Under the pieces are notes generated by a model. It saw only the letters and a program-made list of their open reading frames with translations. It did not search any database and was not told the origin of the DNA. Both the position numbers and the translations under genes were made by a program. From NCBI GenBank assembly GCA_903846015.1, contig CAIMZS010000460.1:40-64039 (forward strand): DNA of 64,000 nucleotides. Direction: 5' to 3'. The DNA is from an uncultured Anaerolineae bacterium (GTDB taxonomy: Bacteria > Chloroflexota > Anaerolineae > Anaerolineales > Villigracilaceae). Positions 16,043-62,720 of the stretch are shown piece by piece (position 1 is the first letter of the stretch; each line of letters opens with the position of its first letter).

Positions 16043-16066
16043 TCTTATCTCCTACTACGATGAGGC

Positions 16067-22344: not shown

Positions 22345-23937
22345 ATGAACCCGAACCAAACTGCCGCATTTAAAACCCTGGAACAAGCTCAGCAAGCTTT
22401 AAAAAGTGGAGATAAGAATGCATCCCGCCAGCTTGCGGCACATGCTGTTCAGCTTGCCCCGGAATTGGAAGAGGTTTGGTTGTTAATGGCAGCGCTGGCC
22501 ACCCCACAAGATAGTATAGCCCTTCTCCAGAAAGCTTTGCAGATTAACCCACAAAGCGAACGCGCCGTTAAGGGTTTGGCCTGGGCAAAAAAGCGCATAT
22601 CCCAGGAAACGCAAATCGGCATGACGGCACCAAACATTCCTCTGCATCCGGTAACGCCAGAAGAAATAAGCGCTCCACCGATTAGGAACGCTCCGGAACC
22701 GCAAATCGGCATGATGGCATCAGACATTCCTCTGCATCCGGTAACGCCAGAAGAAATAAGCGCTCCGCCGATTAGGAACACTCCGGAACCGCGACAGATT
22801 ACCCAGAATTTGGTTATCAGTCCTGCAGAACCCGGGCCTGTCAAACTTCCTGGTTCGATCACCCAACCTCACAAGATATCATCCACTGAACATGAGCCGG
22901 CCACTACCCTTGCCGATGCACCCAAAACTCCTCGCAGCAAAGATTCTTTTGTTCTTCCGCGTTATTCCTACGTGGCCCTGCTGGGTGTTTTTATCTGCCT
23001 GGTAATTGCATGGTTGGCATGGCAAGGCGTGCAGCCAGCTGCGGCTTTCTTCAGCAGCCACCCATTTACCGGTCAGGAACATGGGCCAGCCTGGGCGCCG
23101 GTAAGCATCGTCAAACCAGCACCTCCACTTAATACAAATGAGATCATTGCAGACCCAACCGCCACGAATATTACCCCTGCAGATCTGGCGCCCACTGCTC
23201 TTGCGCCCTCGGTTGACCCTTCAACCCTGACTGAAACCCCGGCACCAGCAGCAGTCGTTCTTTCAACTGATATACCGGTTGTTATGACAGCAACCCAGCA
23301 GATTGCCGCCATTCTCCCCACAAACACACAGATCGTCGTCACGGCAACACCACAACCAACGGCCATCCCGCCCACATCCGTACCGGCTCCGACTCTCCCG
23401 GCTCCAACCATTCCAGTGCCAACCGATCCTCCATTACCCACTGCCACTACGATAGCAACATTGGCAGTGAGCACACTCGTAGTCGATGCAGCTGCATCAC
23501 CCACCCCACTACCCACCGATACTGGCGGGCCGTTCGCCACTCCCCTGCCACCGGGTAACAGCGGGGTAGTCAGTTCCGCTGGCAGCGGACACTGGATCGA
23601 TGTAGATCTGACAAACCAGATGGTATACGCCTATGATGGCAATAACATTGTAAATTCATTCCTGGTGTCCACCGGGACATGGGCGCATCCCACCGTCACT
23701 GGTCAGTACCATGTATACGTCAAATATCGCTACACAGATATGTCCGGCCCCGGCTATTACCTGCCCAACGTGCCCTTTACCATGTATTTTTACCAGGGAT
23801 ACGCACTTCACGGCACATACTGGCACAGCAACTTCGGCACCCCCATGAGTCATGGATGCGTCAACTTGAGCATACCCGATTCCGAATGGGTCTACAATTT
23901 TTCATCGGTGGGGACACTGGTCAATGTGCATTATTAA
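22345..23937 (+). CDS. TPR / Pro-Thr-rich linker / L,D-transpeptidase (YkuD) protein
   Basis: The N-terminus is TPR-like. An internal 30-aa tandem duplication follows, then a TM segment and a long P/T/A-rich linker. The C-terminal YkuD catalytic context is HGTYWHSNFGTPMSHGCVNL. Confidence 0.85.
   Translation: MNPNQTAAFKTLEQAQQALKSGDKNASRQLAAHAVQLAPELEEVWLLMAALATPQDSIALLQKALQINPQSERAVKGLAWAKKRISQETQIGMTAPNIPLHPVTPEEISAPPIRNAPEPQIGMMASDIPLHPVTPEEISAPPIRNTPEPRQITQNLVISPAEPGPVKLPGSITQPHKISSTEHEPATTLADAPKTPRSKDSFVLPRYSYVALLGVFICLVIAWLAWQGVQPAAAFFSSHPFTGQEHGPAWAPVSIVKPAPPLNTNEIIADPTATNITPADLAPTALAPSVDPSTLTETPAPAAVVLSTDIPVVMTATQQIAAILPTNTQIVVTATPQPTAIPPTSVPAPTLPAPTIPVPTDPPLPTATTIATLAVSTLVVDAAASPTPLPTDTGGPFATPLPPGNSGVVSSAGSGHWIDVDLTNQMVYAYDGNNIVNSFLVSTGTWAHPTVTGQYHVYVKYRYTDMSGPGYYLPNVPFTMYFYQGYALHGTYWHSNFGTPMSHGCVNLSIPDSEWVYNFSSVGTLVNVHY
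22611..22790 (+). repeat. 2 x 90-bp near-identical in-frame tandem duplication inside the L,D-transpeptidase gene
   Basis: Unit 22611-22700 and unit 22701-22790 differ at about 6 positions. They encode QIGMTAPNIPLHPVTPEEISAPPIRNAPEP and QIGMMASDIPLHPVTPEEISAPPIRNTPEP. Confidence 0.9.
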
Positions 23938-51782: not shown

Positions 51783-51819
51783 GCGATAGTCCCGCGATAG
51801 TGCCGGTTCTAGCACAGCC
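51783..51819. repeat. Short dispersed repeat, family A (reverse orientation)
   Basis: gcgatagtcccgcgatagtgccggttctagcacagcc. The reverse complement contains GTGCTAGAACCGGCACTATCGC. Confidence 0.75.
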
Positions 51820-52015
51820 ACTGCTACAAGGCGAAGGAATCGAAAATATGTGTTCACCCAATCCAAACCTATTTTCTACGAAATTCTGCACCACACCCTC
51901 GGCTTGGGCTTTACCCACTCTTAAAAAAGTGCTATGCTATGATTGGTTTTACATCATCCCGGCACAGACCGGGACCGTCCCTTTCTGAATCTCTCTATTA
52001 CTTGGCTAAAAATTC

Positions 52016-54580
52016 ATGGATAGCAAAACCCTGCACGTACTCGAATATCCCAAAATATTGGAACGCCTTGCCTCCAATTGTGACTTCTCCGCATCGGCAG
52101 CGCTGGCGCGTTCTCTCGAACCCACCACATCCTATGATACCGCCCTGCTGCGCCTGCAAGAGACAACCGAAGCACGCCGGTTGATCACTGCCCAGGATGT
52201 CAGCATTGGTGGGGCTCGTGATGTGCGCGAAAAAGTGGAACTGGCCCGGCGCGGCGGCGTGCTCGAAACAGTTGATCTGTTGGACATAAAATACACCCTC
52301 ATTTCGTGCCGTGAGCTTAAGCGCACACTGCTTGGAAAAGGAATGGACTCAGAAATTCAGCCAGAAGGCGCGACCCCATCCCGGCAGCCGAGTATCCCGA
52401 GGCAAAACCAGCTGCGGAAACAAGCCCGACAGCTCCGCGATGGCTCTGTGCCGCACCCGAATCATCCCTACCCGCGCATGGCCGAACTGGCCCTGGCGCT
52501 GCCCGTACCGCCCGGCGTCGTGGATGCCATTTCCCGCACCATCTCAGATAAAGGCGAAGTACTCGACTCGGCTTCACCCCGGTTAGGCGCCATCCGCGCC
52601 GAGATTCGCGTTGCACGCGAACGCCTGATGAGCCGCCTGCAGCGCTACCTGGGCGACAGCAAGACATCCCCAATGCTGCAAGACACCATCATCACCCAAC
52701 GAGATGGGCGCTACGTCATCCCACTGCGCGCCGAGTTCAAAGGCCAGATCAAGTCAATCGTTCACGACCAATCATCCAGCGGCGCAACACTCTTCATTGA
52801 ACCAATCGCTGTAGTTGAATTAAACAATAAAATGCGTGAAGTGGAATTAGCCGAACGTGACGAGATTCGCCGGGTTTTGGCTGAAGTTTCGGCCCAGGTT
52901 GGCCTGCAGGCCGAAGCTATCGTCACCGGTGTTGATGCCCTGGCAGCCATCGACCTGGCCTTTGCCAAAGCCAAATTTGCCGAAGACATCCATGCATCCG
53001 AACCAATCCTGCACAAACAATCCGCATTGATACGCCTCTTCAAAGCCCGCCACCCGCTGATCGACCCAACCATGGTGGTCCCCAATGACATCGATCTGGC
53101 ACCGGGTACACGCGCCGTTGTCATCACCGGGCCAAACACCGGCGGCAAGACCGTTTCGCTTAAGACCGTCGGTCTGCTGGTGGTCATGGCCCAAAGCGGT
53201 TTGCACATCCCCGCCCAGAGTGGCTCCGAATTATCCATGTTCCATGATATCTTCGCCGATATTGGTGATGAGCAATCCATTGAGCAATCACTCAGCACGT
53301 TCAGCGGTCATATCACCAACATCATCCGCATCCTGAAGAAGATCGACGCCCGTTCACTGGTCATTCTCGATGAACTGGGCGCCGGCACCGACCCACAAGA
53401 GGGCGCAGCCCTGGCGCGCGCCATCCTCAGCCACCTGCTTGAACGCGGGTTGACTACCTTTGTAGCCACACATTACCCCGAACTTAAAGCTTTTGCCCAC
53501 AGCGCCGAAGGCGTGGTCAACGCCTCGCTCGAATTTGACGTTGCCACCCTGCGGCCCACCTACCGCCTGACCATCGGCCTGCCGGGACGTTCCAATGCCC
53601 TGGCCATCGCCGCCAGACTGGGCCTGCCCGAAGCCATCATTGCCGATGCTCGTAACGAGGTCAACCCCGATGAATTGCGCGCCGACCGCCTGCTGGATGA
53701 TATCCGTAAAGAACGCAACCGCTCCAGCCGTGAACGTGAAAAAGCCGAAAAAGCCCGCCAGCGCATTGATGATCTCAGCAGCGAATTAGCCGCACATCTC
53801 GAAAAAATCGAAGACGAGCGCCTCGAAGTGATCGCCAGAGCCAAGGCTGAGGCCGAGCTCGAAGTAGAAGTGCTCAAACGCAATATTGGACGGCTCAAAA
53901 CCGAGTTGAAAAAGCTGCGCCAACCGCTCGAAGCCATTGAGAGACTGGAGATCAAAGCGGAAGCAATCGAGGAAAAAGCCCTGGCGCCCGTTGAGCGCCA
54001 GATTCCCGCAAAGGCAGCCAACCCAAAACCTCTCCCAAAACCCATCAGCGGACCGCTCAAGCTGGGCGAGAAAGTCATCGTTCGCAGCCTTGGCAGCGAA
54101 GGCATTGTCACTGCTCTGGGCGAAGGTGATGCCGAAGTACAGGTTGGCAGTTTGCGCATCCGTGCCCGCTTCGGCGAGATCCAGCGTAAATCTGACGCCG
54201 ATGAAAGCTGGCCTGGCATAGGCATCGGAAAAACAGATGAACCGGGCTTGACCGGACGCACCCGCCGCATTAAACAAATGGCAGAAAATATGCCATCGTC
54301 CACATCTTCATCCTATATCGGGATCGCCACACCCAGTATGGAACTTGACTTACGCGGGCAGCGCGCCGAAGACGCCCTGTTGATGCTGGATAATTACCTG
54401 GACAAGGCCTACCTGGCAGGCATGCCCTTTGTGCGTATCATCCATGGCAAAGGGACAGGTAAGCTGCGCCAGGAAGTGCGCGCAGTACTCAAAGATCATG
54501 CCCAGGTATCATCCTTCGAAGAAGGTCTTCCCGGCGAAGGTGGTGACGGCGTCACCGTTGCCAAAATTGTTAAAGATTAA
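52016..54580 (+). CDS. mutS2: Endonuclease MutS2 (MutS domain V ATPase plus C-terminal Smr domain)
   Basis: Walker A GPNTGGKTVSLKT, DELGAGTDP, a long coiled coil, and the Smr domain LDLRGQRAEDAL...IIHGKGTGKLR. Confidence 0.95.
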   Translation: MDSKTLHVLEYPKILERLASNCDFSASAALARSLEPTTSYDTALLRLQETTEARRLITAQDVSIGGARDVREKVELARRGGVLETVDLLDIKYTLISCRELKRTLLGKGMDSEIQPEGATPSRQPSIPRQNQLRKQARQLRDGSVPHPNHPYPRMAELALALPVPPGVVDAISRTISDKGEVLDSASPRLGAIRAEIRVARERLMSRLQRYLGDSKTSPMLQDTIITQRDGRYVIPLRAEFKGQIKSIVHDQSSSGATLFIEPIAVVELNNKMREVELAERDEIRRVLAEVSAQVGLQAEAIVTGVDALAAIDLAFAKAKFAEDIHASEPILHKQSALIRLFKARHPLIDPTMVVPNDIDLAPGTRAVVITGPNTGGKTVSLKTVGLLVVMAQSGLHIPAQSGSELSMFHDIFADIGDEQSIEQSLSTFSGHITNIIRILKKIDARSLVILDELGAGTDPQEGAALARAILSHLLERGLTTFVATHYPELKAFAHSAEGVVNASLEFDVATLRPTYRLTIGLPGRSNALAIAARLGLPEAIIADARNEVNPDELRADRLLDDIRKERNRSSREREKAEKARQRIDDLSSELAAHLEKIEDERLEVIARAKAEAELEVEVLKRNIGRLKTELKKLRQPLEAIERLEIKAEAIEEKALAPVERQIPAKAANPKPLPKPISGPLKLGEKVIVRSLGSEGIVTALGEGDAEVQVGSLRIRARFGEIQRKSDADESWPGIGIGKTDEPGLTGRTRRIKQMAENMPSSTSSSYIGIATPSMELDLRGQRAEDALLMLDNYLDKAYLAGMPFVRIIHGKGTGKLRQEVRAVLKDHAQVSSFEEGLPGEGGDGVTVAKIVKD

Positions 54581-54624
54581 TCCCGGTTTTTGTAATAGTC
54601 AGCAATAGCGTGAACAAAATTCTT

Positions 54625-54662
54625 AAAAAAGTAGCACGGCGGTAAATCGCCGTGCTACTTTT
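54625..54662. terminator. Bidirectional hairpin terminator after mutS2 (member of a repeated hairpin family)
   Basis: AAAAAA-GTAGCACGGCG-GTAAAT-CGCCGTGCTAC-TTTT has an 11-bp perfect stem. Confidence 0.65.
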
Positions 54663-54789
54663 AATCCTGACCACCACCGAACGCAAATCAGGCAAGTCTC
54701 ATATCAATCCGCTTTGCTGCTTCGAATAGGTTGGCGGTACCCTTATTGTTGCATCCAACGGTGGAACAGATTCGCACCCGGCCTGGTAT

Positions 54790-55254
54790 TTAAGGTTTAT
54801 ATCTGTGCCACTGCCTGGCAAACTTCAAAATCTGGCTGCGGATATAAAACATGTCTGGGTCTGCAATTGGGCGCTGTTTTTTGATCAACTTCATCGCAGC
54901 ATCCGCGCCATATCCCTGGGCAATCAAGATCGCCGCCCCCATCGCCACGCTGCGATGACGCCCCTTCGCGCAGTGCGAATATACTTTTCCACCTTTGCGA
55001 ATGACATCCAATGCGGTGTGTGTGCCTTCAATCAGCTTTTGGATCGGGATCAAGATGATTGGCGAATCAAAAGTCCGCAGCCACAAAAACTCCAATACTT
55101 CCGACCTGCGGTTTTCCGCAATGTCAGGGTGCGGCCCACGCATTAAACGCATATTGATCACCAGGCGCACCCCCAACTCTCGCAGCCGAACATAATCCAC
55201 TGCTTCAGGCGTGGTACCGATAAACAAATCGTCCGTAATTTGCGAAAAGTCCAT
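54790..55254 (-). CDS. Dual-specificity (Cys-based) protein phosphatase
   Basis: The active-site P-loop VYSHCAKGRHRS (HCx5R[S/T]). Confidence 0.8.
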   Translation of the reverse strand: MDFSQITDDLFIGTTPEAVDYVRLRELGVRLVINMRLMRGPHPDIAENRRSEVLEFLWLRTFDSPIILIPIQKLIEGTHTALDVIRKGGKVYSHCAKGRHRSVAMGAAILIAQGYGADAAMKLIKKQRPIADPDMFYIRSQILKFARQWHRYKP

Positions 55255-55277
55255 CCGTAAATTTTACTCCATTCCTG

Positions 55278-55330
55278 CGGCCGTGCTAGCGATAGTCCCC
55301 GGCTCCCGCACGGGGCACCGGCACTATAAG
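55278..55330. repeat. Short dispersed repeat, family A (hairpin form)
   Basis: gcggccgtgctagcgatagtccccggctcccgcacggggcaccggcactataag aligns with 58666-58713. Confidence 0.75.
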
Positions 55331-55331
55331 A

Positions 55332-55368
55332 CGAGATTGCCACGCCGCAAAGAACGCGGCTCGCAATC
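55332..55368. repeat. Short repeat, family B (ATTGCCACGYCGC...GAACGC...TCGCAAT), intergenic copy
   Basis: cgagattgccacgccgcaaagaacgcggctcgcaatc has the internal hairpin GCCGC/GCGGC and outer arms GATTGC/GCAATC. The same family occurs at 60045-60082 and 60659-60700. Confidence 0.6.
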
Positions 55369-55398
55369 TGAATCGGGTAGTATGCCAGGAATGGGAAT

Positions 55399-57084
55399 CT
55401 AACTTTTGGTGGCGGCAATCCACTCGTCCACACGCATTTCAAGCACATCCAGCGGAACGGCCCCGGCCAGCAGCACCACATCATGGAACTCCCGCACATC
55501 AAAACGCTGGCCGAGTACTTTTTCGGCGCGAGCCCGCAGTTCGCGGATCTTCAGCTCCCCCATTTTATAAGCCAGGGCCTGCCCGGGCCAGGCAATATAA
55601 CGGTCCACTTCATTAGTGATATTGAGCAGTGTTGAGGATGTATTTGCAGCCATGAAATCGATCGCCCTCTGACGTGACCAACCCAGGGCATGCAACCCCG
55701 TATCAACCACCAGGCGACATGCGCGCCACATTTCATAACTCAATCGACCAAAATTGCTGTACGGATCAGAATAAAAACCCATCTCCAGACCCAGGCGCTC
55801 GGCATATAACGCCCAGCCTTCTTCAAAAACCGTAAAACCGCTGAAACGGCGGAAATTCGGCAATTCAGTCAATTCCTGCTGCAGCGCAATTTGCAGATGA
55901 TGACCAGGAACCGCCTCATGCAGCGACAGGGCCTCTATCTCATATAATGGGCGGCTTTTTAGATCGTAGGTATTTACATAATAGAAACCAGCTTTGGTGC
56001 CGTCCCCTGTTCCCGGCATGTAATACGCCGTGGTTTGGCCTGGGGCGCTGAAGTCCGGCACAGATCGCAGCCCATATGGCAAGCGTGGCAGAGTTTTAAA
56101 TAACCGCGGCAGCTCACCGTCCACACGCTTCATCAGATAAGCTGTCTCCTTCAACAAAGCTTCAGGCGTATCCACATAAAAACGAGGGTCGCGCAGCAGA
56201 AATTCGACAAAAGCTTGGAAATCACCATGAAAACCAGTCTGGCGAATAACATCATTCATTTCTGCGCGAATACGCCTGACCTCATTTTGTCCTATCTCAT
56301 GCACAGCTTCTGCGGAAATATCAATAGTGGTGAAATAACGAATACGGCTTTGATAAAAAGCGCGCCCATCGGGCAAGTCGGCGGCAGCAATACTATTTCT
56401 AGCGCCAGGCAGATATTCATCTTCCAAAAAACGCACAAGCCCTGCATAAGCCGGAATGACCGAACCGCGAATAGCTTGATGGGCGGCATCGATCAAGCGT
56501 TCCTGGTCAACACCACCAACCGCTGCCGGAAAATCACTGAAAGGCTGGAAAAACACACTCTGCGCTGGATCATCCACACAATGCGCGGATAGGGATTCCA
56601 TCACCCCGCTCAGTGTGACGTGTGCTGGAATAAAACCGGCTTTCAAGCCAGCGCGCATGATATCTATGCTTTGTTCAAAATATTGAGATACGGCTGCCAG
56701 GCGGGCCAGGTAATTCTCGTAATCCTGGACCGTATCGAATGGGGACAGCAGATGCAGATCTGGAAAAAAGATATGAAAACCACCCGCCTTGGAAATGGGA
56801 AGGAAATGCGCCTTGTAATCCAGCTCAGCAATCTCGCTATCCAGCCTGCGCGCGAAGATATCATAATTCAGACGTTCGTCCTTGCTCAAAATGCTTCGAT
56901 CAAGGGCCGCCAGGCGGGTGCGAAAACCACGTAACTGGATCAGCCATGCCTGATAATGCGACTCATCTGCTCCTGGCAAGCGATCATTAAAACGCGAGTC
57001 GCCACAAGCCGTGGCAAAAATTGGATCCCAGCGCATCAACGCGTCCCAGTGATCCGCGAGCAATTGAGCTAATGGTGAGTTCAT
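55399..57084 (-). CDS. DUF885-family protein (putative metallopeptidase-like)
   Basis: The HEAVPGHHLQ motif and a typical DUF885 length. The start at 57084 gives MNSPLAQLLADHW. The 54 extra N-terminal codons of the long ORF are translated repeat elements. Confidence 0.85.
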   Translation of the reverse strand: MNSPLAQLLADHWDALMRWDPIFATACGDSRFNDRLPGADESHYQAWLIQLRGFRTRLAALDRSILSKDERLNYDIFARRLDSEIAELDYKAHFLPISKAGGFHIFFPDLHLLSPFDTVQDYENYLARLAAVSQYFEQSIDIMRAGLKAGFIPAHVTLSGVMESLSAHCVDDPAQSVFFQPFSDFPAAVGGVDQERLIDAAHQAIRGSVIPAYAGLVRFLEDEYLPGARNSIAAADLPDGRAFYQSRIRYFTTIDISAEAVHEIGQNEVRRIRAEMNDVIRQTGFHGDFQAFVEFLLRDPRFYVDTPEALLKETAYLMKRVDGELPRLFKTLPRLPYGLRSVPDFSAPGQTTAYYMPGTGDGTKAGFYYVNTYDLKSRPLYEIEALSLHEAVPGHHLQIALQQELTELPNFRRFSGFTVFEEGWALYAERLGLEMGFYSDPYSNFGRLSYEMWRACRLVVDTGLHALGWSRQRAIDFMAANTSSTLLNITNEVDRYIAWPGQALAYKMGELKIRELRARAEKVLGQRFDVREFHDVVLLAGAVPLDVLEMRVDEWIAATKS

Positions 57085-57096
57085 AATCCTCCAATT

Positions 57097-57180
57097 GCGA
57101 TAGTCCCGGTGCCAGCACGAGGCGATAGTCCCGGTGCCCCGTGGCCGTGCTAGAACGGGCACTATCGCGATAAATCGCTC
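57097..57180. repeat. Two adjacent family A repeat units
   Basis: gcgatagtcccggtgccagcacgag followed by gcgatagtcccggtgccccgtggccgtgctagaacgggcactatcgcgataaatcgc. Confidence 0.75.
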
Positions 57181-57384
57181 TACTATCTCAAGCAGGGGAA
57201 TTATACGATTATTAACGCTGCAAACTTTGCGACTTTGATGAAACAATCGCTTTGCGTGCGAGAAGCCGGGTTTATGTCTGCCTGCTTCCTGGCGAAACTA
57301 TTTTTATCACAATACCAGTCATCCCATGGAATGGTTCCGATCTCCACCTGGAGACACGGGCCCTGATGGAACAACCGCTTTGCG

Positions 57385-57418
57385 TGGCCCTGCTAGAACG
57401 GGCACTATCGCGATAAAC
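57385..57418. repeat. Short dispersed repeat, family A
   Basis: tggccctgctagaacgggcactatcgcgataaac. The preceding segment gatggaacaaccgctttgcgtg duplicates gatgaaacaatcgctttgcgtg at ~57236. Confidence 0.7.
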
Positions 57419-57582
57419 TGCTCATGATTTCCAAAATCAAAGGTAATTTATGGCTTGATCTTTACCGGGTTACAAGCCTTCTACTTCGTTTTTTTGTGTT
57501 AGACTTGCCAGATATTAATGGCTGGGCGGTGCCCGGCGATATTTCAGATGCTCCCCGTCTTTGTGCGGGAAGGAATAATCCT

Positions 57583-58638
57583 ATGCCTTATCGTGGACTT
57601 TTGGATAGATACGGCTCGCTGCTTAACCTGCCGGCCCACACTCGCCCCGTCACTCTCCTGGAGGGCAACACCCCGTTAATCCCCGCCGAAAATCTCTCCC
57701 GGCACCTGGGCGGCGGGTTTGATTTATTTGTTAAATTCGAGGGGCTGAACCCTACCGGCTCATTTAAAGATCGCGGAATGACCGCTGCCGTCAGCGAAGC
57801 GCTTGGGCGCGGCGCTAAAACCGTTATCTGCGCCAGTACAGGGAACACGGCTGCATCCGCAGCCGCCTATGCCTCACGCGCCGGGCTGAAATCAATCGTT
57901 CTGATCCCTCAAGGCAAAGTCGCTGCTGGAAAACTGGCTGGCGCCATCGCCTATGGCGCCCAGGTTGTCCAGATCGATGGCTCATTTGACGATGCCCTGA
58001 CTATGGTGGTGCAAATTTCGGACAAGCACCCTATCTGCCTGGTCAACTCGATTAACCCTTACCGCATCGAAGGACAAAAAACCGCGGCGTTTGAGATCTG
58101 TGATACGCTCGGCCGCGCGCCAGATTGGCTATGCCTGCCAGTTGGCAATGCCGGAAACATCACTGCTTACTGGGCTGGATTCAAACAATACGACGAACTA
58201 AATGCAACTGGCCTGCCCCAAATTTTGGGTGTACAGGCAGCCGGCGCAGCCCCATTGGTACTCGGTCATCCCGTTGAAAACCCCGAAACGGTGGCAACCG
58301 CCATCCGCATCGGCAAACCTGCGCGCGGCGAACAGGCCCTCGAAGCGGCCGAACAATCCAAAGGACGCATCATTGCCGTCAGCGACGACGAGATTCTTTC
58401 CATGCAAGCGCTGCTCGCCAGGCTCGAAGGCATCTGGGTCGAACCTGCTTCCGCAGCCGGGCTGGCCGGTTTGGCCCACGAAATCGCAGCTGGCAACTTT
58501 CACCCCGCCGGGAAACGCATTACAGCCATTTGTACCGGGCACGGCCTCAAAGATCCCGACATCATCATCAAGGGTATGACCAAACCCCAAATCGTCGCGC
58601 CAAATCTGGCTGCCCTTGAAGCCGTGCTTCTTGTCTGA
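57583..58638 (+). CDS. thrC: Threonine synthase
   Basis: MPYRGLLDRYG..., the PLP-lysine context NPTGSFKDRGM, and CASTGNT. A GGAAGGA Shine-Dalgarno sequence lies upstream of ATG 57583. Confidence 0.95.
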   Translation: MPYRGLLDRYGSLLNLPAHTRPVTLLEGNTPLIPAENLSRHLGGGFDLFVKFEGLNPTGSFKDRGMTAAVSEALGRGAKTVICASTGNTAASAAAYASRAGLKSIVLIPQGKVAAGKLAGAIAYGAQVVQIDGSFDDALTMVVQISDKHPICLVNSINPYRIEGQKTAAFEICDTLGRAPDWLCLPVGNAGNITAYWAGFKQYDELNATGLPQILGVQAAGAAPLVLGHPVENPETVATAIRIGKPARGEQALEAAEQSKGRIIAVSDDEILSMQALLARLEGIWVEPASAAGLAGLAHEIAAGNFHPAGKRITAICTGHGLKDPDIIIKGMTKPQIVAPNLAALEAVLLV

Positions 58639-58815
58639 ACCGCATCGTGCGGTGTCTGAACCGGCCCTGCTAGCGATAGTCCCGGCTCTCGCACGGGGCA
58701 CGGGCACTATCGCAGATTTACGCAGATTTAGATGATTACACAGATTAGAGCAGATTAGAGCAAGAGCAAGGTTAAAGACTATCTCGTGGCCGTGCTAAAT
58801 GATCCCGGTTCCCGA
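58632..58815. repeat. Mosaic of short repeat modules filling the thrC-thrB spacer
   Basis: The modules run in this order: GTCTGAACC-hairpin-GTCTGAACC; a family A hairpin; CGCAGATTTA x2; GATGATTACACAGATTAGAG plus CAGATTAGAG plus CAAGAGCAAG; and a degenerate family A end. It is collinear with 61531-61662. Confidence 0.8.
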
Positions 58816-58868
58816 ATCTGTACTTAACTCAGAATGATCTTGCAGTTCAGATTATCCAGGATGATTCC

Positions 58869-59783
58869 ATGAAAATACATGTAAAAGTACCTGCCACCAC
58901 CGCCAACCTTGGCCCCGGCTTTGATGCCCTCGGGCTGGCGCTCGATCTGTGGAACGAGGCCGAATTTATCGCCACCGATGACAGGCAAATCTCCCTGACC
59001 ATCGCGGGGGAAGGCGAAGGCAAACTGCCCACAGATGCCAATAACTCCATTGTTGATGCAGCCCTGCAGATATATGACCTGGCCAGGAAACCCTGCACCG
59101 GCATTCGTATCCACTGTATCAACCGCGTGCCGCTCAGCTCCGGATTGGGATCAAGTTCCGCGGCCATGTTAACCGGGCTGCTGGGGGCCAACGGTTTACT
59201 GGGCAATCCCTTCAGCGATGAAGAAATCCTCAAGCTGGCAATCGAAAATGAAGGCCATCCTGATAACGTTGCCCCCGCCATGCTGGGCGGGCTGGTGGCT
59301 TCGATCGTGTATGAGGGCCGTGTCATCTCGCTGAAGCTGCCCACCCGCGCCAACCGCTCACCCATGCATGTCACCATCGTCCTGCCTGATTTTGACTTCC
59401 CCACCAAACAGGCGCGCGCGATCCTGCCCAAACAGGTTGATCGCAAGGATGCCATCTACAACATCAGCCGCGCGGTACTGGTCACCGAGGCACTGCGCAC
59501 AGGCGATCTGGATCTGCTCGGCAAAGCCATGACGGATGCCCTGCACCAGCCTTTCCGCCTCCCGCTTATCCCAGGCGCACAGACTGCCATGGATGCCGGG
59601 CGGCATGCCGGGGCTGCCGCGGTGGCCCTCTCCGGCGCCGGCCCCAGCCTGATCGCATTCTCATCAAAAGAAGATCCGGCCATCGGTACAGCCATGAAGC
59701 GCAGCTTTGAATCCGCTGGTCTCAGCGCACGCATCTTCGAACTCGGCACGAGCTACGAAGGCGCGGAAGTCCTGATCGTATAG
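58869..59783 (+). CDS. thrB: Homoserine kinase
   Basis: The GHMP motifs VPATTANLGPGFDALG and PLSSGLGSSSAA. Confidence 0.95.
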   Translation: MKIHVKVPATTANLGPGFDALGLALDLWNEAEFIATDDRQISLTIAGEGEGKLPTDANNSIVDAALQIYDLARKPCTGIRIHCINRVPLSSGLGSSSAAMLTGLLGANGLLGNPFSDEEILKLAIENEGHPDNVAPAMLGGLVASIVYEGRVISLKLPTRANRSPMHVTIVLPDFDFPTKQARAILPKQVDRKDAIYNISRAVLVTEALRTGDLDLLGKAMTDALHQPFRLPLIPGAQTAMDAGRHAGAAAVALSGAGPSLIAFSSKEDPAIGTAMKRSFESAGLSARIFELGTSYEGAEVLIV

Positions 59784-59792
59784 TTGATAAAA

Positions 59793-61511
59793 ATGGAAAC
59801 CCTTTCCTCAAACATTGACAGCCGCTCTGTAGATTTTCTGGCCAATTCTGAATATCAGCGCGCGTTAGCGGCCAACCTGCGTGAACGCATCGAACTTGTT
59901 CGCCAGGGCGGCGGCGAGAAATACCGCCAGCGCCACGAGCAGCAAGGCAAACTTTTCGTCCGCGAACGTATTGAATGCCTGTTGGATCCGGGGTCGCCCT
60001 TCCTCGAGCTGTCTGCGCTGGCTGCATGGGATATGTACGGCGAGACTGCCACGTCGCTGGGGAACGCTCGCAATGACAAGAGTGAAAACGCCGCCCCAGC
60101 CGCAGGCATCGTCACCGGCATCGGACGCATTTGCGGGCATGAAGTAATGATCGTTGCTAACGATGCCACCGTCAAAGGTGGCACATACTTCCCCATGACG
60201 GTAAAAAAGCACCTGCGCGCCCAGCAAATCGCCGAAGAAAACCACCTGCCCTGCCTGTACCTGGTTGATTCAGGCGGGGCGTTTTTACCTATGCAGGATG
60301 AAGTCTTCCCGGACGCGAACCATTTCGGGCATATTTTTTATAATCAAGCCCGTATGAGCGCCAAAGCCATCCCGCAAATCGCCGCGGTCATGGGCAGTTG
60401 CACCGCTGGCGGCGCCTACGTCCCCGCCATGAGCGACGAGGCCATCATCGTCCAGGGCACAGGCACCATCTTCCTGGGCGGCCCGCCGCTGGTCAAAGCG
60501 GCGACCGGCGAGGATATTTCTGCCGAGGAACTTGGCGGTGCCGATGTGCATACCCGCAAAAGCGGCGTTGCCGACCATTACGCTGAAGATGATGAACACG
60601 CCATCTCACTGCTTCGCGATATCGTCGAAACTTTGCCAACCGCCAGATCTCGCCACGGGATTGCCACGTCGCTGGGGAACGCTCCTCGCAATGACAGGAG
60701 AGAGTCTTACCTGGCAGCGCTTGATGTAATCCCTCCGGAAGAACCGCTCTTTCCCGCCGAAGACTTATACGGCATCCTGCCACGCAGCTTCCGCGAGTCA
60801 TACGATGTGCGCGAGGTGATTGCCCGCCTGGTCGATGGCAGCAAATTCCGCGAATTCAAAGCGCGCTACGGTACAACACTTGTAACCGGTTTTGCCCGTA
60901 TTCACGGCTATCCTGTAGGCATTATCGCCAACAATGGCGTTCTTTTTAGCGAATCAGCTCTGAAAGCCGCTCATTTCATCGAGTTGTGCGATCAACGCGG
61001 TACACCACTTTTGTTTCTACAAAACATTACCGGCTTCATGGTCGGACGCGAAGCAGAGTCGGGTGGGATTGCACGCGATGGGGCCAAGATGGTACATGCC
61101 GTTGCCAACACCCGCGTACCCAAACTAACCGTGGTGATCGGGGGATCCTTTGGCGCCGGCAACTACGCCATGGCCGGGCGCGGCTATTCACCTCGCTTCC
61201 TGTGGATGTGGCCCAATGCGCGCATCTCCGTCATGGGCGGCGAGCAAGCCGCCAATGTACTCCTGACCATCAAGCAAGACCAGCTTGCCCGTGAAGGTAA
61301 GGCGGCGCTTAGCCCAGAACAGGCGGCTGAGTTTAAACGCCCCACTCTCGAAAAATATGAACACGAAGGCAACCCGTATTACTCCACCGCCCGGCTGTGG
61401 GATGATGGCGTGATCGACCCGCTCGACACCCGTAAGATACTTGGGTTGGCGCTCTCGGTGGTGCTCAATGGGCCGGTGGAAGACAATCATTTTGGTGTCT
61501 TCAGGATGTAA
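59793..61511 (+). CDS. Methylcrotonoyl-CoA carboxylase beta (carboxyltransferase) subunit, with two repeat-derived in-frame inserts
   Basis: Long stretches match recalled MCCC2/LiuB sequence ([61 protein letters not shown]). The ATG at 59793 is preferred over the TTG at 59784. Confidence 0.9.
60045..60082 (+). repeat. Family B repeat inserted in-frame in the carboxyltransferase CDS (copy 1)
   Basis: actgccacgtcgctggggaacgctcgcaatgacaagag encodes [13 protein letters not shown]. Confidence 0.7.
60659..60700 (+). repeat. Family B repeat inserted in-frame in the carboxyltransferase CDS (copy 2)
   Basis: gattgccacgtcgctggggaacgctcctcgcaatgacaggag encodes [13 protein letters not shown]. It differs from copy 1 by about 2 substitutions and one 3-nt indel. 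Confidence 0.7.
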
Positions 61512-61530
61512 CCCTGCGCCCTTTTCACCG

Positions 61531-61662
61531 CGTGTCTGAACCACCTCGTGCGGTGTCTGAACCGCAGATTTACGCAGATTTCGATGATTACGCAGATTAG
61601 AGCAAGAGCGAGTGTCTGAACCGTTGCGTGTCTCGTGGCCGTGCTAGAACCGGCACTATCGC
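61531..61662. repeat. Mosaic of short repeat modules between the carboxyltransferase and the SDR gene
   Basis: The modules run in this order: GTGTCTGAACC x3; CGCAGATTTA x2; GATGATTACGCAGATTAGAGCAAGAGCGAG; and CGTGGCCGTGCTAGAACCGGCACTATCGC. The module order matches 58632-58815. Confidence 0.8.
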
Positions 61663-61673
61663 TGGAGTAATTC

Positions 61674-62720
61674 ATGAACATCCTCATCATCGGTGGAACT
61701 CGCTTTCTTGGTCGTCACCTTGTCGATGCCGCGCTCTCAAACGGGCATACCATCACTCTTTTTAATCGCGGTAAAACAGGTCCAGAACTTTTTCCACAGA
61801 TCGAAACGATTAACGGCGACCGCGAAACGGATCTGAACAGGCTGGCCGGCCGTCAATGGGAGGCGGTCATCGATACCTGCGGGTATTTTCCGCGCATTGT
61901 TAACCTCTCTGCTCAGGCGCTCAAAGATTCAGCCGGAATGTTTGTTTTTATTTCCAGCTTTTCAGTTTATGCAGATTTTTCCAGGATCGGTATCAACGAA
62001 AGCGACCCGACCGGCGGACTGACCGATGAAGGCATCGAAGAAATCACGGGCGAGAGTTACGGCCCCCTGAAAGCGCTGTGCGAACAATTTATTTCGCAAA
62101 AATTCCCGGAACGGGCCCTGATCATCCGCCCTGGACTGATAGTAGGCCCCCATGATCCCACCGACCGCTTTACTTATTGGCCCGCGCGCGTTGCAGCAGG
62201 CGGCGATGTGCTTGCCCCGGAAGACCCGCAGGTCCCTGTCCAAATCATCGATGTGCGTGACCTGGCCGGGTTTATCATCCATCTGATCGAACAGAAATCA
62301 ACCGGCCATGGCCCTGCTAGAACGGGCAATATCGCTAGAACCGGCACTATCGGCGTTTATAACGCCACCGGTCCTGCCGTTGAGCTAAGTTTCGGGGCCA
62401 TGCTTGAAACCTGCAAACAAGTCAGCGGCTCGGATGCGAATTTCAAGTGGGCATCCGTTGAGTTTCTGTCTGAAAACAAGGTTGCTCCATGGAGCGACCT
62501 GCCTGTCTGGGTACCAAATACACCCGCCGATGCTGGATTTTCCCGCGTCGATATTTCCAAAGCGCTCAGCGCTGGTCTGACCTTCCGCACTCTCTCCGAG
62601 ACAGTGCGCGATACGCTGGCCTGGGCATCCACCCGCCCAATTGACTACAAATGGCTGGCGGGCCTGGATACCGATCGCGAAATCGAACTGCACAGCCTCA
62701 TGAGGGAGACACGGCGATAA
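61674..62720 (+). CDS. NAD-dependent epimerase/dehydratase (SDR family) with a repeat-derived in-frame insert
   Basis: MNILIIGGTRFLGRHL Rossmann start, YGPLK catalytic Y-x3-K context. Confidence 0.8.
   Translation: MNILIIGGTRFLGRHLVDAALSNGHTITLFNRGKTGPELFPQIETINGDRETDLNRLAGRQWEAVIDTCGYFPRIVNLSAQALKDSAGMFVFISSFSVYADFSRIGINESDPTGGLTDEGIEEITGESYGPLKALCEQFISQKFPERALIIRPGLIVGPHDPTDRFTYWPARVAAGGDVLAPEDPQVPVQIIDVRDLAGFIIHLIEQKSTGHGPARTGNIARTGTIGVYNATGPAVELSFGAMLETCKQVSGSDANFKWASVEFLSENKVAPWSDLPVWVPNTPADAGFSRVDISKALSAGLTFRTLSETVRDTLAWASTRPIDYKWLAGLDTDREIELHSLMRETRR
62310..62354 (+). repeat. Family A repeat (1.5 units) inside the SDR CDS, in frame
   Basis: ggccctgctagaacgggcaatatcgctagaaccggcactatcggc encodes GPARTGNIARTGTIG. 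Confidence 0.75.

What the first reader, a model, noticed from the sequence alone, without database searches (positions are those of the whole stretch)
60045..60700. A second repeat family occurs once between genes and twice in-frame inside the methylcrotonyl-CoA carboxylase beta gene
The sequence GATTGCCACGTCGCTGGGGAACGCTCCTCGCAATGACAGGAG lies at 60659-60700. A near-identical copy, ACTGCCACGTCGCTGGGGAACGCTCGCAATGACAAGAG, lies at 60045-60082. Both are in the same gene and the same reading frame, and they encode (I/T)ATSLGNA(P)RND(R/K).

A recognisable relative, GATTGCCACGCCGCAAAGAACGCGGCTCGCAATC, lies in the intergenic region at 55335-55368, directly next to a family A element.

I compared the protein with the MCCC2/LiuB sequence I recall (...[20 protein letters not shown]... 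and ...[24 protein letters not shown]...). This protein carries about 13 and about 20 extra residues exactly at the two repeat positions. Its length is 572-575 aa against the usual ~535-565 aa.

This resembles the in-frame insertion of palindromic elements into ORFs described for Rickettsia (RPEs). Peptides of the ARND/SLxxA type recall repeat-derived pseudo-peptides seen in other phyla.
Basis: partly seen in the sequence, partly recalled or inferred. Interest (0 to 1): 0.7.

Follow-up and report, generated by a model that had tools for sequence, protein, structure and literature searches.

The report
Repeat elements inserted in-frame in carboxylase gene
Two copies of a short dispersed DNA repeat sit in-frame in the only two length-tolerant loops of an otherwise well-conserved methylcrotonyl-CoA carboxylase beta gene of an uncultured Anaerolineales bacterium; this is a real but not unprecedented case of selfish repeats adding loops to a working enzyme.

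Summary
A 42-nt copy (60041-60082) and a 45-nt copy (60656-60700) are 39/42 identical. They share an exact 22-mer (0 expected by chance) and lie in the same orientation and frame in a 572-aa MCC-beta-type carboxyltransferase gene (59793-61511).

- **Lineage-specific:** the closest orthologues (84-85% identity) lack both segments, as do all solved homologues.
- **Placement:** among 120 Anaerolineales orthologues the protein has only two internal indel hot spots, and these are exactly the two repeat sites.
- **Gene is functional:** it is intact, has dN/dS 0.04-0.06, and recurs with both inserts in several separate assemblies.
- **Family:** the element belongs to a very widespread, seemingly undescribed repeat superfamily with core ATTGC..CGTCGC..GCTCCTCGCAAT|GAC. 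It occurs in Anaerolineales MAGs, Methylosinus, Methylocystis and Halomonas plasmids and more than 120 IMG/VR contigs.
- **Usual form:** it is normally intergenic, often as inverted heterodimers, with the YGTC tag, AT-first stem and CC(A) tail of CGTC-tagged REPs (the class that includes Rickettsia RPE-4 and RPE-6).
- **Difference:** the two genic copies no longer fold as hairpins.

Verdict: in-frame REP-like insertions tolerated in permissive loops. This is a new member of a known kind, of moderate interest. The mobilising enzyme and actual translation remain untested.

The parts
59793..61511 (+). MCC-beta-type (AccD1/LiuB-like) carboxyltransferase gene, 572 aa, host of both inserts
   Evidence: ORF list. 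phmmer against PDB: 9tps, 8j4z, 3u9r, 4q0g with E about 1e-222 to 1e-224. Identical to database protein P0121. dN/dS 0.04-0.06 against the closest orthologue genes. MCC-marker Phe present in NHFGH (alignment; criterion from PMC4673880).
60041..60082 (+). Repeat copy 1 (42 nt; encodes [13 protein letters not shown]) in the N-domain loop between LAAWDMY and AGIVTGIGR; corresponds to human MCCC2 N111/E112
   Evidence: Exact 22-mer. Covariance model hit E=2.3e-8. Absent from P0002/P0003 and falls in indel hot spot 1, query aa 84-100. Outer stem degraded (ACTGC vs GCAAT) and no hairpin, z = +0.9 to +1.8.
60656..60700 (+). [quoted passage not shown]
   Evidence: Exact 22-mer. Covariance model hit E=6.8e-14. 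Clean 16-codon insertion against L001 and L002. Falls in indel hot spot 2, query aa 284-310. phmmer splits the human alignment exactly here. No hairpin, z = +0.7 to +1.5.
55336..55367 (+). Intergenic family member (32 nt) with intact two-step hairpin, between the DUF885 gene stop and the DSPc phosphatase gene start (both on the - strand)
   Evidence: Pattern match. Covariance model hit at 55330-55374, E=7.9e-9. DNA fold -10.8 and -12.1 kcal/mol, z = -3.1 and -3.7. Identical 32-mer in Anaerolineales MAG contigs L126 and L132.
55298..55327 (.). Family-A-type repeat abutting the intergenic family-B copy
   Evidence: the repeat finder family D11; sequence.

Best explanation
Two element-sized insertions of a short REP-like dispersed repeat landed in the coding sequence of an MCC-beta-type carboxyltransferase. 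The repeat belongs to the superfamily with core ATTGC..CGTCGC-variable mini-loop-GCTCCTCGCAAT, followed by GAC.

**Why they survived (partly shown, partly inferred).**
- Their lengths are multiples of three (45 and 42 nt).
- They are read in a stop-free frame; five of the six frames of the element are open.

**Present state.** They are most likely translated as 13-16-residue Gly/Ser/Asn/Pro/Arg-rich coil segments and carried as near-neutral passengers. The gene stays under strong purifying selection. The genic copies have lost the hairpin that intergenic members have.

**Shown here:** family membership, lineage-specific gain, position at the indel hot spots, an intact and constrained gene, and reproducibility across assemblies.

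**Inferred:**
- The insertion mechanism. The likely route is transposition of a single-stranded hairpin element by a trans-acting enzyme, as for REP/RAYT. No enzyme is known for CGTC-type REPs and none was identified here.
- Translation of the inserts.
- Neutrality of the inserts.

**Not resolvable here:** whether the donor of the second copy was the first copy (a local hop) or another genomic copy.
For: **The repeat is real and belongs to a family.**
- Exact 22-mer, 0 expected by chance.
- Family covariance model hits all three window copies at E = 7e-14 to 2e-8.
- The similarity between the two genic copies stops at the family's own consensus boundaries (gucGAG...GACAgga), not at host sequence.

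**The inserts were gained in this lineage.** They are absent from the closest orthologues P0002 and P0003 and from all 118 other Anaerolineales orthologues.

**The sites are the permissive ones.** There are only two internal indel hot spots in 120 orthologues, and they coincide with the two inserts.

**The same loops hold other repeats in other orthologues.**
- L135 linker: GAAAGTGGAAAGTCCC...GGGACTTTCCACTTTCC, with a nested repeat that recurs intergenically.
- L136 site 1: GTGCGTC-ATCAG-GACGCAC.

**The family is dispersed.**
- Intergenic members lie around the MCC operon in related genomes L135 and L136.
- Nine hits in Anaerolineae/Anaerolineales MAGs.
- More than 120 IMG/VR contigs and 288 model hits in 847 kb of fetched loci.
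- The identical 20-mer core lies in intergenic DNA of two other metagenome contigs.

**The same superfamily sits in-frame in other genuine proteins:** SPP1-type portal, portal-MuF, Mu transposase and a type III RM methylase ORF with two copies.

**The gene is intact and constrained.** dN/dS is 0.04-0.06.

**The allele is reproducible.**
- The same 572-aa protein is recorded on about 4 contigs, and a T362S variant on another assembly.
- The two SNPs that distinguish L139 from the window inside the gene both lie in the inserts and are both synonymous.
- The only indel between the two copies is 3 nt.

**A neighbouring gene shows the same phenomenon.** The epimerase gene carries a 16-aa in-frame family-A insert.
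Against: - No high-identity 'empty site' allele was found. The nearest orthologue genes are only 78-81% identical in DNA, so exact insertion boundaries and any target duplication cannot be read.
- Only three family members exist in 64 kb, and two are in this one gene, in the same orientation and frame.
- The exact sub-variant is rare elsewhere:
  - 0 hits in IMG/VR.
  - No 33-nt form among GTDB representative genomes.
  - Only 2 JGI metagenome contigs.
  - No other protein shared enough 5-residue words with the query for any to score E<=10 among 5.8 billion clusters.
- The genic copies do not fold, so they cannot currently be called palindromic elements.
- No transposase was identified.
- Translation was not observed.
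- The AF2 model was too poor (mean pLDDT 55) to show that the inserts are exposed.
- In MCC the N-C linker contacts the BT-domain hook of the alpha subunit (PMC4673880), so neutrality of insert 2 is not guaranteed.
Confidence: 0.75

Rival explanations
1. The second copy did not arrive by element mobility. It arose by ectopic duplication or gene conversion within the gene: one loop's insert was copied into the other loop by recombination or repair.
For: - Two of only three window copies are in one 1.7-kb gene, in the same orientation and frame, and 93% identical.
- They share a rare sub-variant (TGGGGAAC loop) not seen in GTDB representatives or IMG/VR.
- No other protein shared enough 5-residue words with the query for any to score E<=10.
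- SNPs are enriched in both copies between population variants, which could reflect copy-to-copy conversion.
Against: - The similarity ends at the family's consensus borders rather than extending into host flanks.
- The same core occurs in unrelated metagenome contigs in intergenic DNA.
- With only two permissive sites in the protein, co-occurrence at these two sites is what selection would leave from random insertions.
- There is no microhomology between the two target sites that would guide conversion.
Confidence: 0.12
2. The inserts are retained because the encoded peptide (I/T)ATSLGNA(P)RND has acquired a function. One example would be modulating the contact between the N-C linker of beta and the BT hook of the alpha subunit, or holoenzyme assembly.
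For: - The same peptide frame is used at both sites.
- Both population SNPs in the inserts are synonymous.
- The indel between the copies is in-frame.
- In MCC the linker is a known alpha-beta contact (PMC4673880).
Against: - Two synonymous SNPs are too few to show selection.
- The closest orthologues work without the inserts.
- The same two loops carry unrelated sequences of 0-22 aa across orthologues.
- The peptide occurs in no other protein.
- Superfamily insertions in other proteins use other frames.
Confidence: 0.08
3. The inserts are not part of the mature protein. They would be bypassed or removed at the RNA or translation level, as in phage T4 gene 60 or the mobile 'byp' elements of yeast mitochondria.
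For: Short GC-rich mobile inserts in coding regions that are translationally bypassed are known elsewhere (own knowledge). Nothing in the present data specifically supports this here.
Against: - The inserts are open in the host frame and are multiples of three.
- They have no take-off/landing codon pair, no in-frame stop and no stable hairpin.
- Read-through is the simplest reading.
Confidence: 0.03
4. The feature is an artefact, or the gene is dead: a mis-assembly at repeats or a decaying pseudogene.
For: The source is a metagenome assembly, and repeats can cause chimeric joins.
Against: - The same allele is recorded on about four contigs, and a one-residue variant on a fifth. The assemblies named are ERZ27313599 and ERZ1426836, plus ERZ1426842 for the variant, and an NCBI record is listed as a source.
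- Both flanks of each insert continue the orthologous sequence in-frame.
- There are no frameshifts or stops, and dN/dS is 0.04-0.06.
Confidence: 0.02

Closest known systems
CGTC-tagged REPs (Di Nocera, De Gregorio & Rocco 2013, BMC Genomics 14:522; PMC3733652), which include Rickettsia conorii RPE-4 and RPE-6
   Same: - Short dispersed repeats with an unpaired YGTC tag at one end, a stem beginning with A-T, T-A, and a CC(A) tail. An example is Methylosinus CGTC|ATTGC...GCAAT|CCAG.
- Mostly intergenic, often as inverted heterodimers: 42 of 148 members have an inverted partner within 130 nt.
- Present in several phyla.
- Documented inside ORFs of known proteins, sometimes twice per ORF, encoding 8-30 aa.
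   Different: - The described families have 8-9-bp perfect stems and 4-5-nt loops. This family has a 5-bp outer stem, an internal loop, a second short and often mismatched stem, and a variable 3-12-nt centre.
- In that paper only GTAG repeats, not CGTC repeats, were reported for Chloroflexi, and none of the named hosts seen here (Anaerolineae, Methylosinus, Methylocystis, Halomonas) was analysed.
- No peptide of this family appears in its intragenic list.
- The window's genic copies have lost the hairpin.
Rickettsia palindromic elements, RPE-1 type (Ogata et al. 2000; cited from own knowledge and via PMC3733652)
   Same: Selfish repeats inserted in-frame into functional genes, thought to be tolerated in permissive or surface segments, and adding peptide segments.
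   Different: RPE-1 is about 100-150 bp (about 45 aa) and clearly palindromic, in an obligate intracellular alphaproteobacterium. Here the inserts are 42-45 nt (13-16 aa), the genic copies are non-palindromic, and the host is a free-living Anaerolineales organism.
Bacterial MITEs found in-frame in genes (e.g. Coxiella QMITEs, PMC5896051; review PMC10969869)
   Same: Non-autonomous short repeats that can extend or interrupt ORFs in-frame.
   Different: MITEs are 70-300 bp with 15-30-bp terminal inverted repeats and target-site duplications. None of these features is seen here.
GTAG REP/BIME elements mobilised by RAYT (IS200/IS605-like Y1) transposases
   Same: Size class, hairpin, inverted-dimer organisation and intergenic habitat. 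They provide the most plausible model for mobilisation.
   Different: The tag is YGTC, not GTAG. No RAYT or other transposase association was found or tested here.

Membership tests
CGTC-tagged REP superfamily (Di Nocera 2013) | Unpaired terminal tetranucleotide CGTC (variants TGTC or CCTC allowed) immediately 5' of the stem | tested here: met
   On the reverse strand, copy 2 reads CTGTC|ATTGCGAGG and copy 1 reads TTGTC|ATTGCGAGC (sequences). Superfamily members end GAC+A/G, which is TGTC or CGTC. Methylosinus and Halomonas copies read CGTC|ATTGC and TGTC|ATTGC. The window's intergenic copy lacks the tag (TCAG|ATTGC).
CGTC-tagged REP superfamily (Di Nocera 2013) | Stem starts with complementary A-T and T-A pairs in the first and second positions | tested here: met
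   ATTGC...GCAAT in copy 2, in the intergenic copy and in 139 of 181 regex hits. Copy 1 has ACTGC, so its second pair is broken.
CGTC-tagged REP superfamily (Di Nocera 2013) | Perfect stem of 8-9 bp and loop of 4-5 nt (families CGTC-1 to CGTC-4) | tested here: not met
   5-bp outer stem, internal loop, 5-bp inner stem that is perfect only in the GCCGC/GCGGC form, and a centre of 3-12 nt. It therefore resembles these REPs but is not one of the four described families.
CGTC-tagged REP superfamily (Di Nocera 2013) | Short unpaired CCA-like tail; frequent inverted (head-to-head) dimers, often heterodimers | tested here: met
   Tails CC/CT, and CCAG in Methylosinus. 42 of 148 members have an inverted short-form partner within 130 nt. 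The window's three copies are singletons.
Rickettsia RPE (RPE-1 type) | About 100-150-bp palindromic element inserted in-frame in ORFs | tested here: not met
   In-frame: yes. Length is 42-45 nt and the genic copies do not fold. The resemblance is in kind, not in family.
MITE | 70-300 bp, terminal inverted repeats of 15-30 bp, target-site duplication | tested here: not met
   Element is about 45 nt, with only a 5-bp terminal complementarity. No duplication is evident at either site against L001 and L002.
REP/RAYT system | GTAG tag and a linked RAYT (IS200/IS605-like) gene flanked by the repeats | not tested
   The tag is YGTC, not GTAG. No search for RAYT genes was made, and the rest of the source genome was not available.
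MCC beta (gamma-carboxylating acyl-CoA carboxyltransferase lineage) | Full-length similarity to MCC beta, a long N-terminal helix, and the active-site Phe (human F191) that separates MCC from GCC (Gly) | tested here: met
   E about 1e-223 to 8j4z, 3u9r and 4q0g over residues 3-572, with NHFGH aligned to human DHFG. The criterion is from PMC4673880. A biotin carboxylase gene lies two genes downstream. The substrate itself was not tested.

The most novel reading that the evidence does not exclude
The ATTGC..CGTCGC..GCTCCTCGCAAT|GAC element may be an undescribed, still-mobile, cross-phylum REP-like superfamily. Its 31-nt core is nearly identical in Chloroflexota, Alpha- and Gammaproteobacteria and many phage or viral contigs. 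That conservation would imply a conserved, horizontally spreading mobilising or binding protein that nobody has identified. The element would also be a general generator of loop insertions in proteins: MCC beta here, and portal proteins, an RM methylase and a Mu-type transposase elsewhere. The two MCC-beta loops of Anaerolineales would be recurrent sinks for several unrelated palindromic repeat families.
Probability: 0.3. Interest if true: 0.65.

Novelty: new member of a known kind. Interest (0 to 1): 0.45.

Why it matters
- It gives a clean natural example, outside Rickettsia, of selfish repeats adding peptide loops to a conserved metabolic enzyme. The example is reproduced in independent assemblies.
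- It shows that where such insertions end up is set by the protein's few length-permissive sites. Both of the only two indel hot spots are occupied.
- It flags a very widespread short repeat. No match was found in Rfam or in the searchable literature. The repeat creates recurrent spurious peptides (APRND, LLAMT, SLRGA..RRSN, CHCEERSD) in gene calls across phyla and in 'viral' contigs, which matters for annotation and for protein clustering.
- If the mobilising factor of these CGTC-like elements could be found, it would answer a question left open in the REP literature.

Tried and rejected
- **AlphaFold2 model.** Run on a 57-sequence orthologue alignment to test whether the inserts are exposed. 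Mean pLDDT was 55 and pTM 0.42. Low-confidence segments include the inserts but also many core regions. The result is inconclusive, and no fold search was run.
- **Covariation test of the outer stem.** The stem is almost invariant (ATTGC/GCAAT in 139 of 181 hits). Only one compensatory example was seen (ACCGC/GCGGT in L134), so covariation gives no statistical support for structure.
- **Single-unit folding of canonical members.** They are not more stable than shuffles. The complementarity lies mainly between the two units of an inverted heterodimer.
- **Rfam.** No family matches any of the repeats, at gathering thresholds over the whole window or at E<=1 over 51-64 kb.
- **Literature.** Searches by DNA core and by derived peptides returned only unrelated primers and words.
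- **Viral-contig scan** for the exact 20-mer of the genic sub-variant: 0 hits.
- **Peptide search** for [12 protein letters not shown]-like words: no other protein. The first two attempts failed on parameter limits.
- **Search for an empty-site allele.** The nearest orthologues are only 84-85% identical in protein, and the 90% cluster holds only insert-bearing alleles.
- **MutS2 insertion.** The 43-aa segment was tested for a repeat origin: no recurrent k-mers.
- **Ancestral-sequence, pseudogene and mis-assembly readings** were considered and rejected.
Full report
**1. The observation.**

The window sequence shows the two stated segments. The 22-mer GCCACGTCGCTGGGGAACGCTC occurs exactly twice, at 60048-60069 and 60663-60684. 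None was found in 100 dinucleotide-preserving shuffles.

The similarity extends to CG[A/G]GA[C/T]TGCCACGTCGCTGGGGAACGCTC[CTC/-]GCAATGACA[A/G]GAG. That is 60041-60082 (42 nt) and 60656-60700 (45 nt). The copies differ by 3 substitutions in 42 aligned bases and one 3-nt indel.

Both copies lie on the + strand in the frame of the ORF 59793..61511 (572 aa from the ATG). They encode [13 protein letters not shown] and [14 protein letters not shown].

The intergenic relative is ATTGCCACGCCGCAAAGAACGCGGCTCGCAAT at 55336-55367. It abuts a family-A-type repeat at 55298-55327.

A covariance model built from 60 family members finds exactly these three copies in the 64-kb window, at E = 7e-14, 8e-9 and 2e-8. 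The next hit has E = 0.07.

**2. The host gene.**

The protein matches solved MCC-beta-type carboxyltransferases end to end: 9tps, human 8j4z, P. aeruginosa 3u9r and M. tuberculosis AccD1 4q0g, with E about 1e-222 to 1e-224. It has the Phe (NHFGH, human F191) that distinguishes MCC from geranyl-CoA carboxylase. The criterion comes from PMC4673880.

A biotin carboxylase gene lies two genes downstream. All close relatives come from Anaerolineales or other Chloroflexota MAGs.

The window protein is identical to database protein P0121. That protein is recorded on about four contigs, including an 83,018-bp contig of ERZ27313599 and one of ERZ1426836, and is listed as held by NCBI. A one-residue variant (P0001, T362S) comes from ERZ1426842. 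All of these carry both inserts, so mis-assembly is excluded.

Nei-Gojobori dN/dS against the two closest orthologue genes is 0.06 and 0.04. This is the same as between those orthologues themselves, so the gene is not decaying.

**3. The segments are lineage-specific insertions at the only two permissive sites.**

Against solved homologues, both repeats fall in gaps, and HMMER splits the human alignment exactly at the second one.

In an alignment of 120 Anaerolineales orthologues, the closest ones lack both segments: P0002 (85% identity, 544 aa) and P0003 (84%, 547 aa).

A codon alignment with their genes (L001, L002) shows a clean 16-codon gain at site 2 and a 9-12-codon gain at site 1. DNA identity is only 78-81%, so no true empty site exists and the exact borders and any target duplication cannot be read.

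Across the 120 orthologues there are only two internal regions of length variation:
- query residues 84-100, with lengths of 2-22 aa;
- query residues 284-310, with lengths of 0-20 aa, plus one 11-aa case.

These are exactly the two repeat sites.

[quoted passage not shown] That linker differs in conformation by up to 10 Å between GCC and MCC, and in MCC it touches the BT-domain hook of the alpha subunit (PMC4673880).

An AlphaFold2 model was too poor to add anything (mean pLDDT 55).

**4. Other orthologues carry other repeats in the same loops.**

In L135 (P0027) the linker encodes ...KVESGKSPYHERLLRHPAQRDFPLST... The DNA is GAAAGTGGAAAGTCCC...GGGACTTTCCACTTTCC, a 16-17-bp inverted repeat. 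It encloses a second repeat whose reverse complement recurs in intergenic DNA just downstream of the gene, near position 6205 of L135. A looser relative lies near position 16060.

Many orthologues show the shorter KVESGK..F(Y)FPLS form, and others show PALSSSKG or IDDRPLWSVVNGPWS. Those last peptides look repeat-derived, but this was not checked at DNA level.

In L136 (P0035), site 1 contains GTGCGTC-ATCAG-GACGCAC, a 7-bp stem with a 5-nt loop.

In the window itself, the next gene (an epimerase-family ORF, 61674-62720) has a 16-aa in-frame insertion against its L002 orthologue. The insertion is made of two tandem family-A units at 62316-62353.

In-frame capture of short repeats is therefore recurrent in this lineage.

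**5. What the repeat is.**

It gave 146 matches. Most are a 31-nt canonical form such as ATTGCCACGTCGCTTCGCTCCTCGCAATGAC.

The centre is a variable mini-hairpin: GC-TTC-GC, GCC-TTC-GGC, GCCC-TGC-GGGC or GCTGC-TTC-GCAGC. The flanks are conserved: RG before ATTGC, and GAC followed by A or G after GCAAT.

The window's copies belong to a sub-lineage with a ..RGAAC centre:
- A scan of one genome per GTDB species for ATTGCCACGYCGCN{3,4}GAACGCNNCTCGCAAT gave nine hits. Eight are in MAGs labelled Anaerolineae, Anaerolineales, Anaerolinea or Chloroflexia, and one is in an unclassified bacterium. All are 32 nt long and followed by GAC.
- Two of these hits are identical to the window's intergenic copy.
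- The exact 20-mer of the genic copies occurs in two JGI metagenome contigs, both in intergenic DNA.
- In L133 the element is itself interrupted by a 25-nt palindromic insert.
- In L134 the outer stem is ACCGC...GCGGT, and the copy sits in an inverted dimer.

Distribution beyond these hits:
- The model finds 288 members in 847 kb of fetched loci.
- It finds intergenic members around the MCC operons of L135 and L136, but none inside their MCC-beta genes.
- Named hosts outside Chloroflexota include Methylosinus trichosporium OB3b, Methylocystis rosea and a Halomonas replicon. Phage records from human faecal samples also match.

In Methylosinus the element lies between convergent genes as an inverted pair: CGTC|ATTGCGAGCAACGCGAAGCAAT|CCAG ... 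CTGG|ATTGCTTCGTCGCTTCGCTCCTCGCAAT|GACG. Halomonas is similar.

Forty-two of 148 members have such an inverted, shorter partner within 130 nt. The two halves of a unit are complementary to the partner rather than to each other. This explains why single canonical units fold no better than shuffles.

No Rfam family matches. No paper in the searchable library contains the core sequence or its peptides.

**6. Comparison with known families.**

The tag (YGTC), the AT-first stem, the CC(A) tail, the inverted heterodimers and the intergenic habitat are the features that Di Nocera et al. 2013 (PMC3733652) use to define CGTC-tagged REPs. That class includes Rickettsia RPE-4 and RPE-6.

The same paper already reports REPs inside ORFs of known proteins, sometimes twice in one ORF. 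It also reports that no transposase is associated with CGTC repeats.

This family does not fit the four described CGTC families, which have 8-9-bp perfect stems and 4-5-nt loops. In that paper only GTAG repeats, not CGTC repeats, were reported for Chloroflexi, and none of the named hosts seen here was analysed. None of its listed intragenic peptides belongs to this family.

I therefore treat the element as CGTC-REP-like, not as a member of a described family. It is not a MITE: there are no long terminal inverted repeats, it is only about 45 nt, and no target duplication is visible. It is not an RPE-1-type element either.

**7. State of the genic copies.**

The intergenic copy folds well as DNA: -10.8 and -12.1 kcal/mol, z = -3.1 and -3.7. 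The two genic copies fold no better than shuffles, z = +0.7 to +1.8. Their inner stem has two mismatches (GTCGC/GCTCC), and copy 1 has also lost a pair of the outer stem (ACTGC).

Five of the six reading frames of the element are open; only + frame 0 has a TGA.

Compared with the canonical 31-nt form, the five extra central bases shift the frame. The stop-containing reading IASSLRSSQ* becomes the open [12 protein letters not shown]. This comes from comparing the sequences.

Between the window and the independent assembly L139 there are 5 SNPs in 14,208 nt. Two lie in the two repeat copies (binomial P = 4e-4), and both are synonymous. This is consistent with fast-evolving but translated segments, although two sites prove nothing.

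**8. In-frame insertions of the superfamily elsewhere.**

Most long ORFs that cover family members in the fetched contigs look spurious. Pfam confirms several real hosts:
- an SPP1-type portal protein (L074), with LSLRGAQRRSNL;
- a portal-MuF fusion (L122), with IATSPVGLLAMT between the domains;
- a Mu-type transposase (L056), with DCHVAEAPRND;
- a type III RM methylase-like ORF (L038), with two copies, one inside the PF12564 match.

**9. Explanation and rivals.**

Best supported (confidence 0.75):
- There were two element-sized insertions of a REP-like repeat.
- They were filtered by selection for length 3n, an open frame and a permissive loop.
- They are now translated as short coil segments in a functional enzyme.

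The mobilisation mechanism is inferred by analogy with REP/RAYT and was not shown.

The main rival (0.12) is that the second copy arose from the first by intragenic duplication or conversion.
- For: the sub-variant is rare, and the two copies share one gene, orientation and frame.
- Against: the similarity stops at the family borders, the same core occurs in unrelated contigs, and the protein offers only two permissive sites.

The remaining rivals are a selected function of the peptide (0.08), bypass or removal of the inserts (0.03) and artefact or pseudogene (0.02).

**10. Verdict.**

The kind of event is already known, so the novelty is modest. It is a new member of a known kind, in a phylum for which the paper reported only GTAG-type REPs and for a repeat family with no match in Rfam or the searchable literature.

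Two aspects may be worth more. One is the near-identical 31-nt core across phyla and viral contigs without a known mobilising enzyme. The other is the repeated colonisation of the same two MCC-beta loops by unrelated palindromic repeats.

Interest 0.45.

Noticed in passing
window 62307-62353 (ORF 61674-62720, +): Two tandem family-A units (GCTAGAACSGGCACTATCGC) lie in-frame in the epimerase-family gene next to MCC beta. They give a 16-aa insertion (STGHGPARTGNIARTG) that is absent from the L002 orthologue.
   Followed up: yes
window 51794-62353: Family A has eight copies (up to 3 mismatches; 0.01 expected by chance), all within the last 12 kb of the window. Most are intergenic, and some occur as inverted pairs.
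   Followed up: partly
window 58632-58762 and 61533-61604: A composite of two more repeat families lies immediately after the stop codons of the threonine-synthase-like gene and of MCC beta. The families are TGTCTGAACCG..GTGCGGTGTCTGAACCG, followed by CGCAGATTTACGCAGATTT.GATGATTAC.CAGATTAGAGCA. The copies are 94-95% identical. They may act as terminators or be another dispersed family.
   Followed up: no
window 60059 and 60683 versus L139: Two of the five SNPs that separate this window from an independent assembly of the same population (14.2 kb compared) fall inside the two 42-45-nt repeat copies. Both are synonymous (binomial P about 4e-4 for the enrichment).
   Followed up: yes
window 52340-52470 (MutS2 gene 52016-54580): MutS2 carries a 43-aa insertion (aa 109-151) relative to the L136 orthologue. 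No recurrent k-mers or repeat signature were found in the window. The L136 orthologue has its own repeat-looking insertion (KVTGSKLKEGKPSTFNLQTLN) elsewhere in the protein.
   Followed up: partly
window 22605-22784: A 90-nt perfect-register tandem duplication (93% identity) was reported by the repeat finder. Its context was not examined.
   Followed up: no
L133 123-190: A family-B copy with the same core as the genic copies is itself split by a 25-nt palindromic insert (catcgccccgatgcccctagggggg) between CTCGCA and ATGACA. A second, heavily nested copy lies just upstream. Short repeats insert into one another.
   Followed up: partly
L135 5340-5410, 6205-6260, 16060-16110: In another Anaerolineales MCC-beta gene, the domain linker is a 16-17-bp-armed palindrome (GAAAGTGGAAAGTCCC/GGGACTTTCCACTTTCC) with a second repeat nested inside. 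Both components recur in nearby intergenic DNA.
   Followed up: yes
L038 3733-3764 and 4078-4109: An ORF on a putative viral contig has a type III RM methylase domain (PF12564) and carries two in-frame copies of the same superfamily in reverse orientation (SLRGAERRSNL and SLRGAKRRGN). Portal-protein and Mu-transposase genes on other contigs carry single copies.
   Followed up: partly
L137 255-335 (Methylosinus trichosporium OB3b plasmid pOB3b1): An inverted heterodimer of the superfamily lies between convergent genes. It has explicit CGTC tags and CCAG/CTGG tails, a textbook CGTC-REP arrangement. This species was not covered by the 2013 REP survey.
   Followed up: partly
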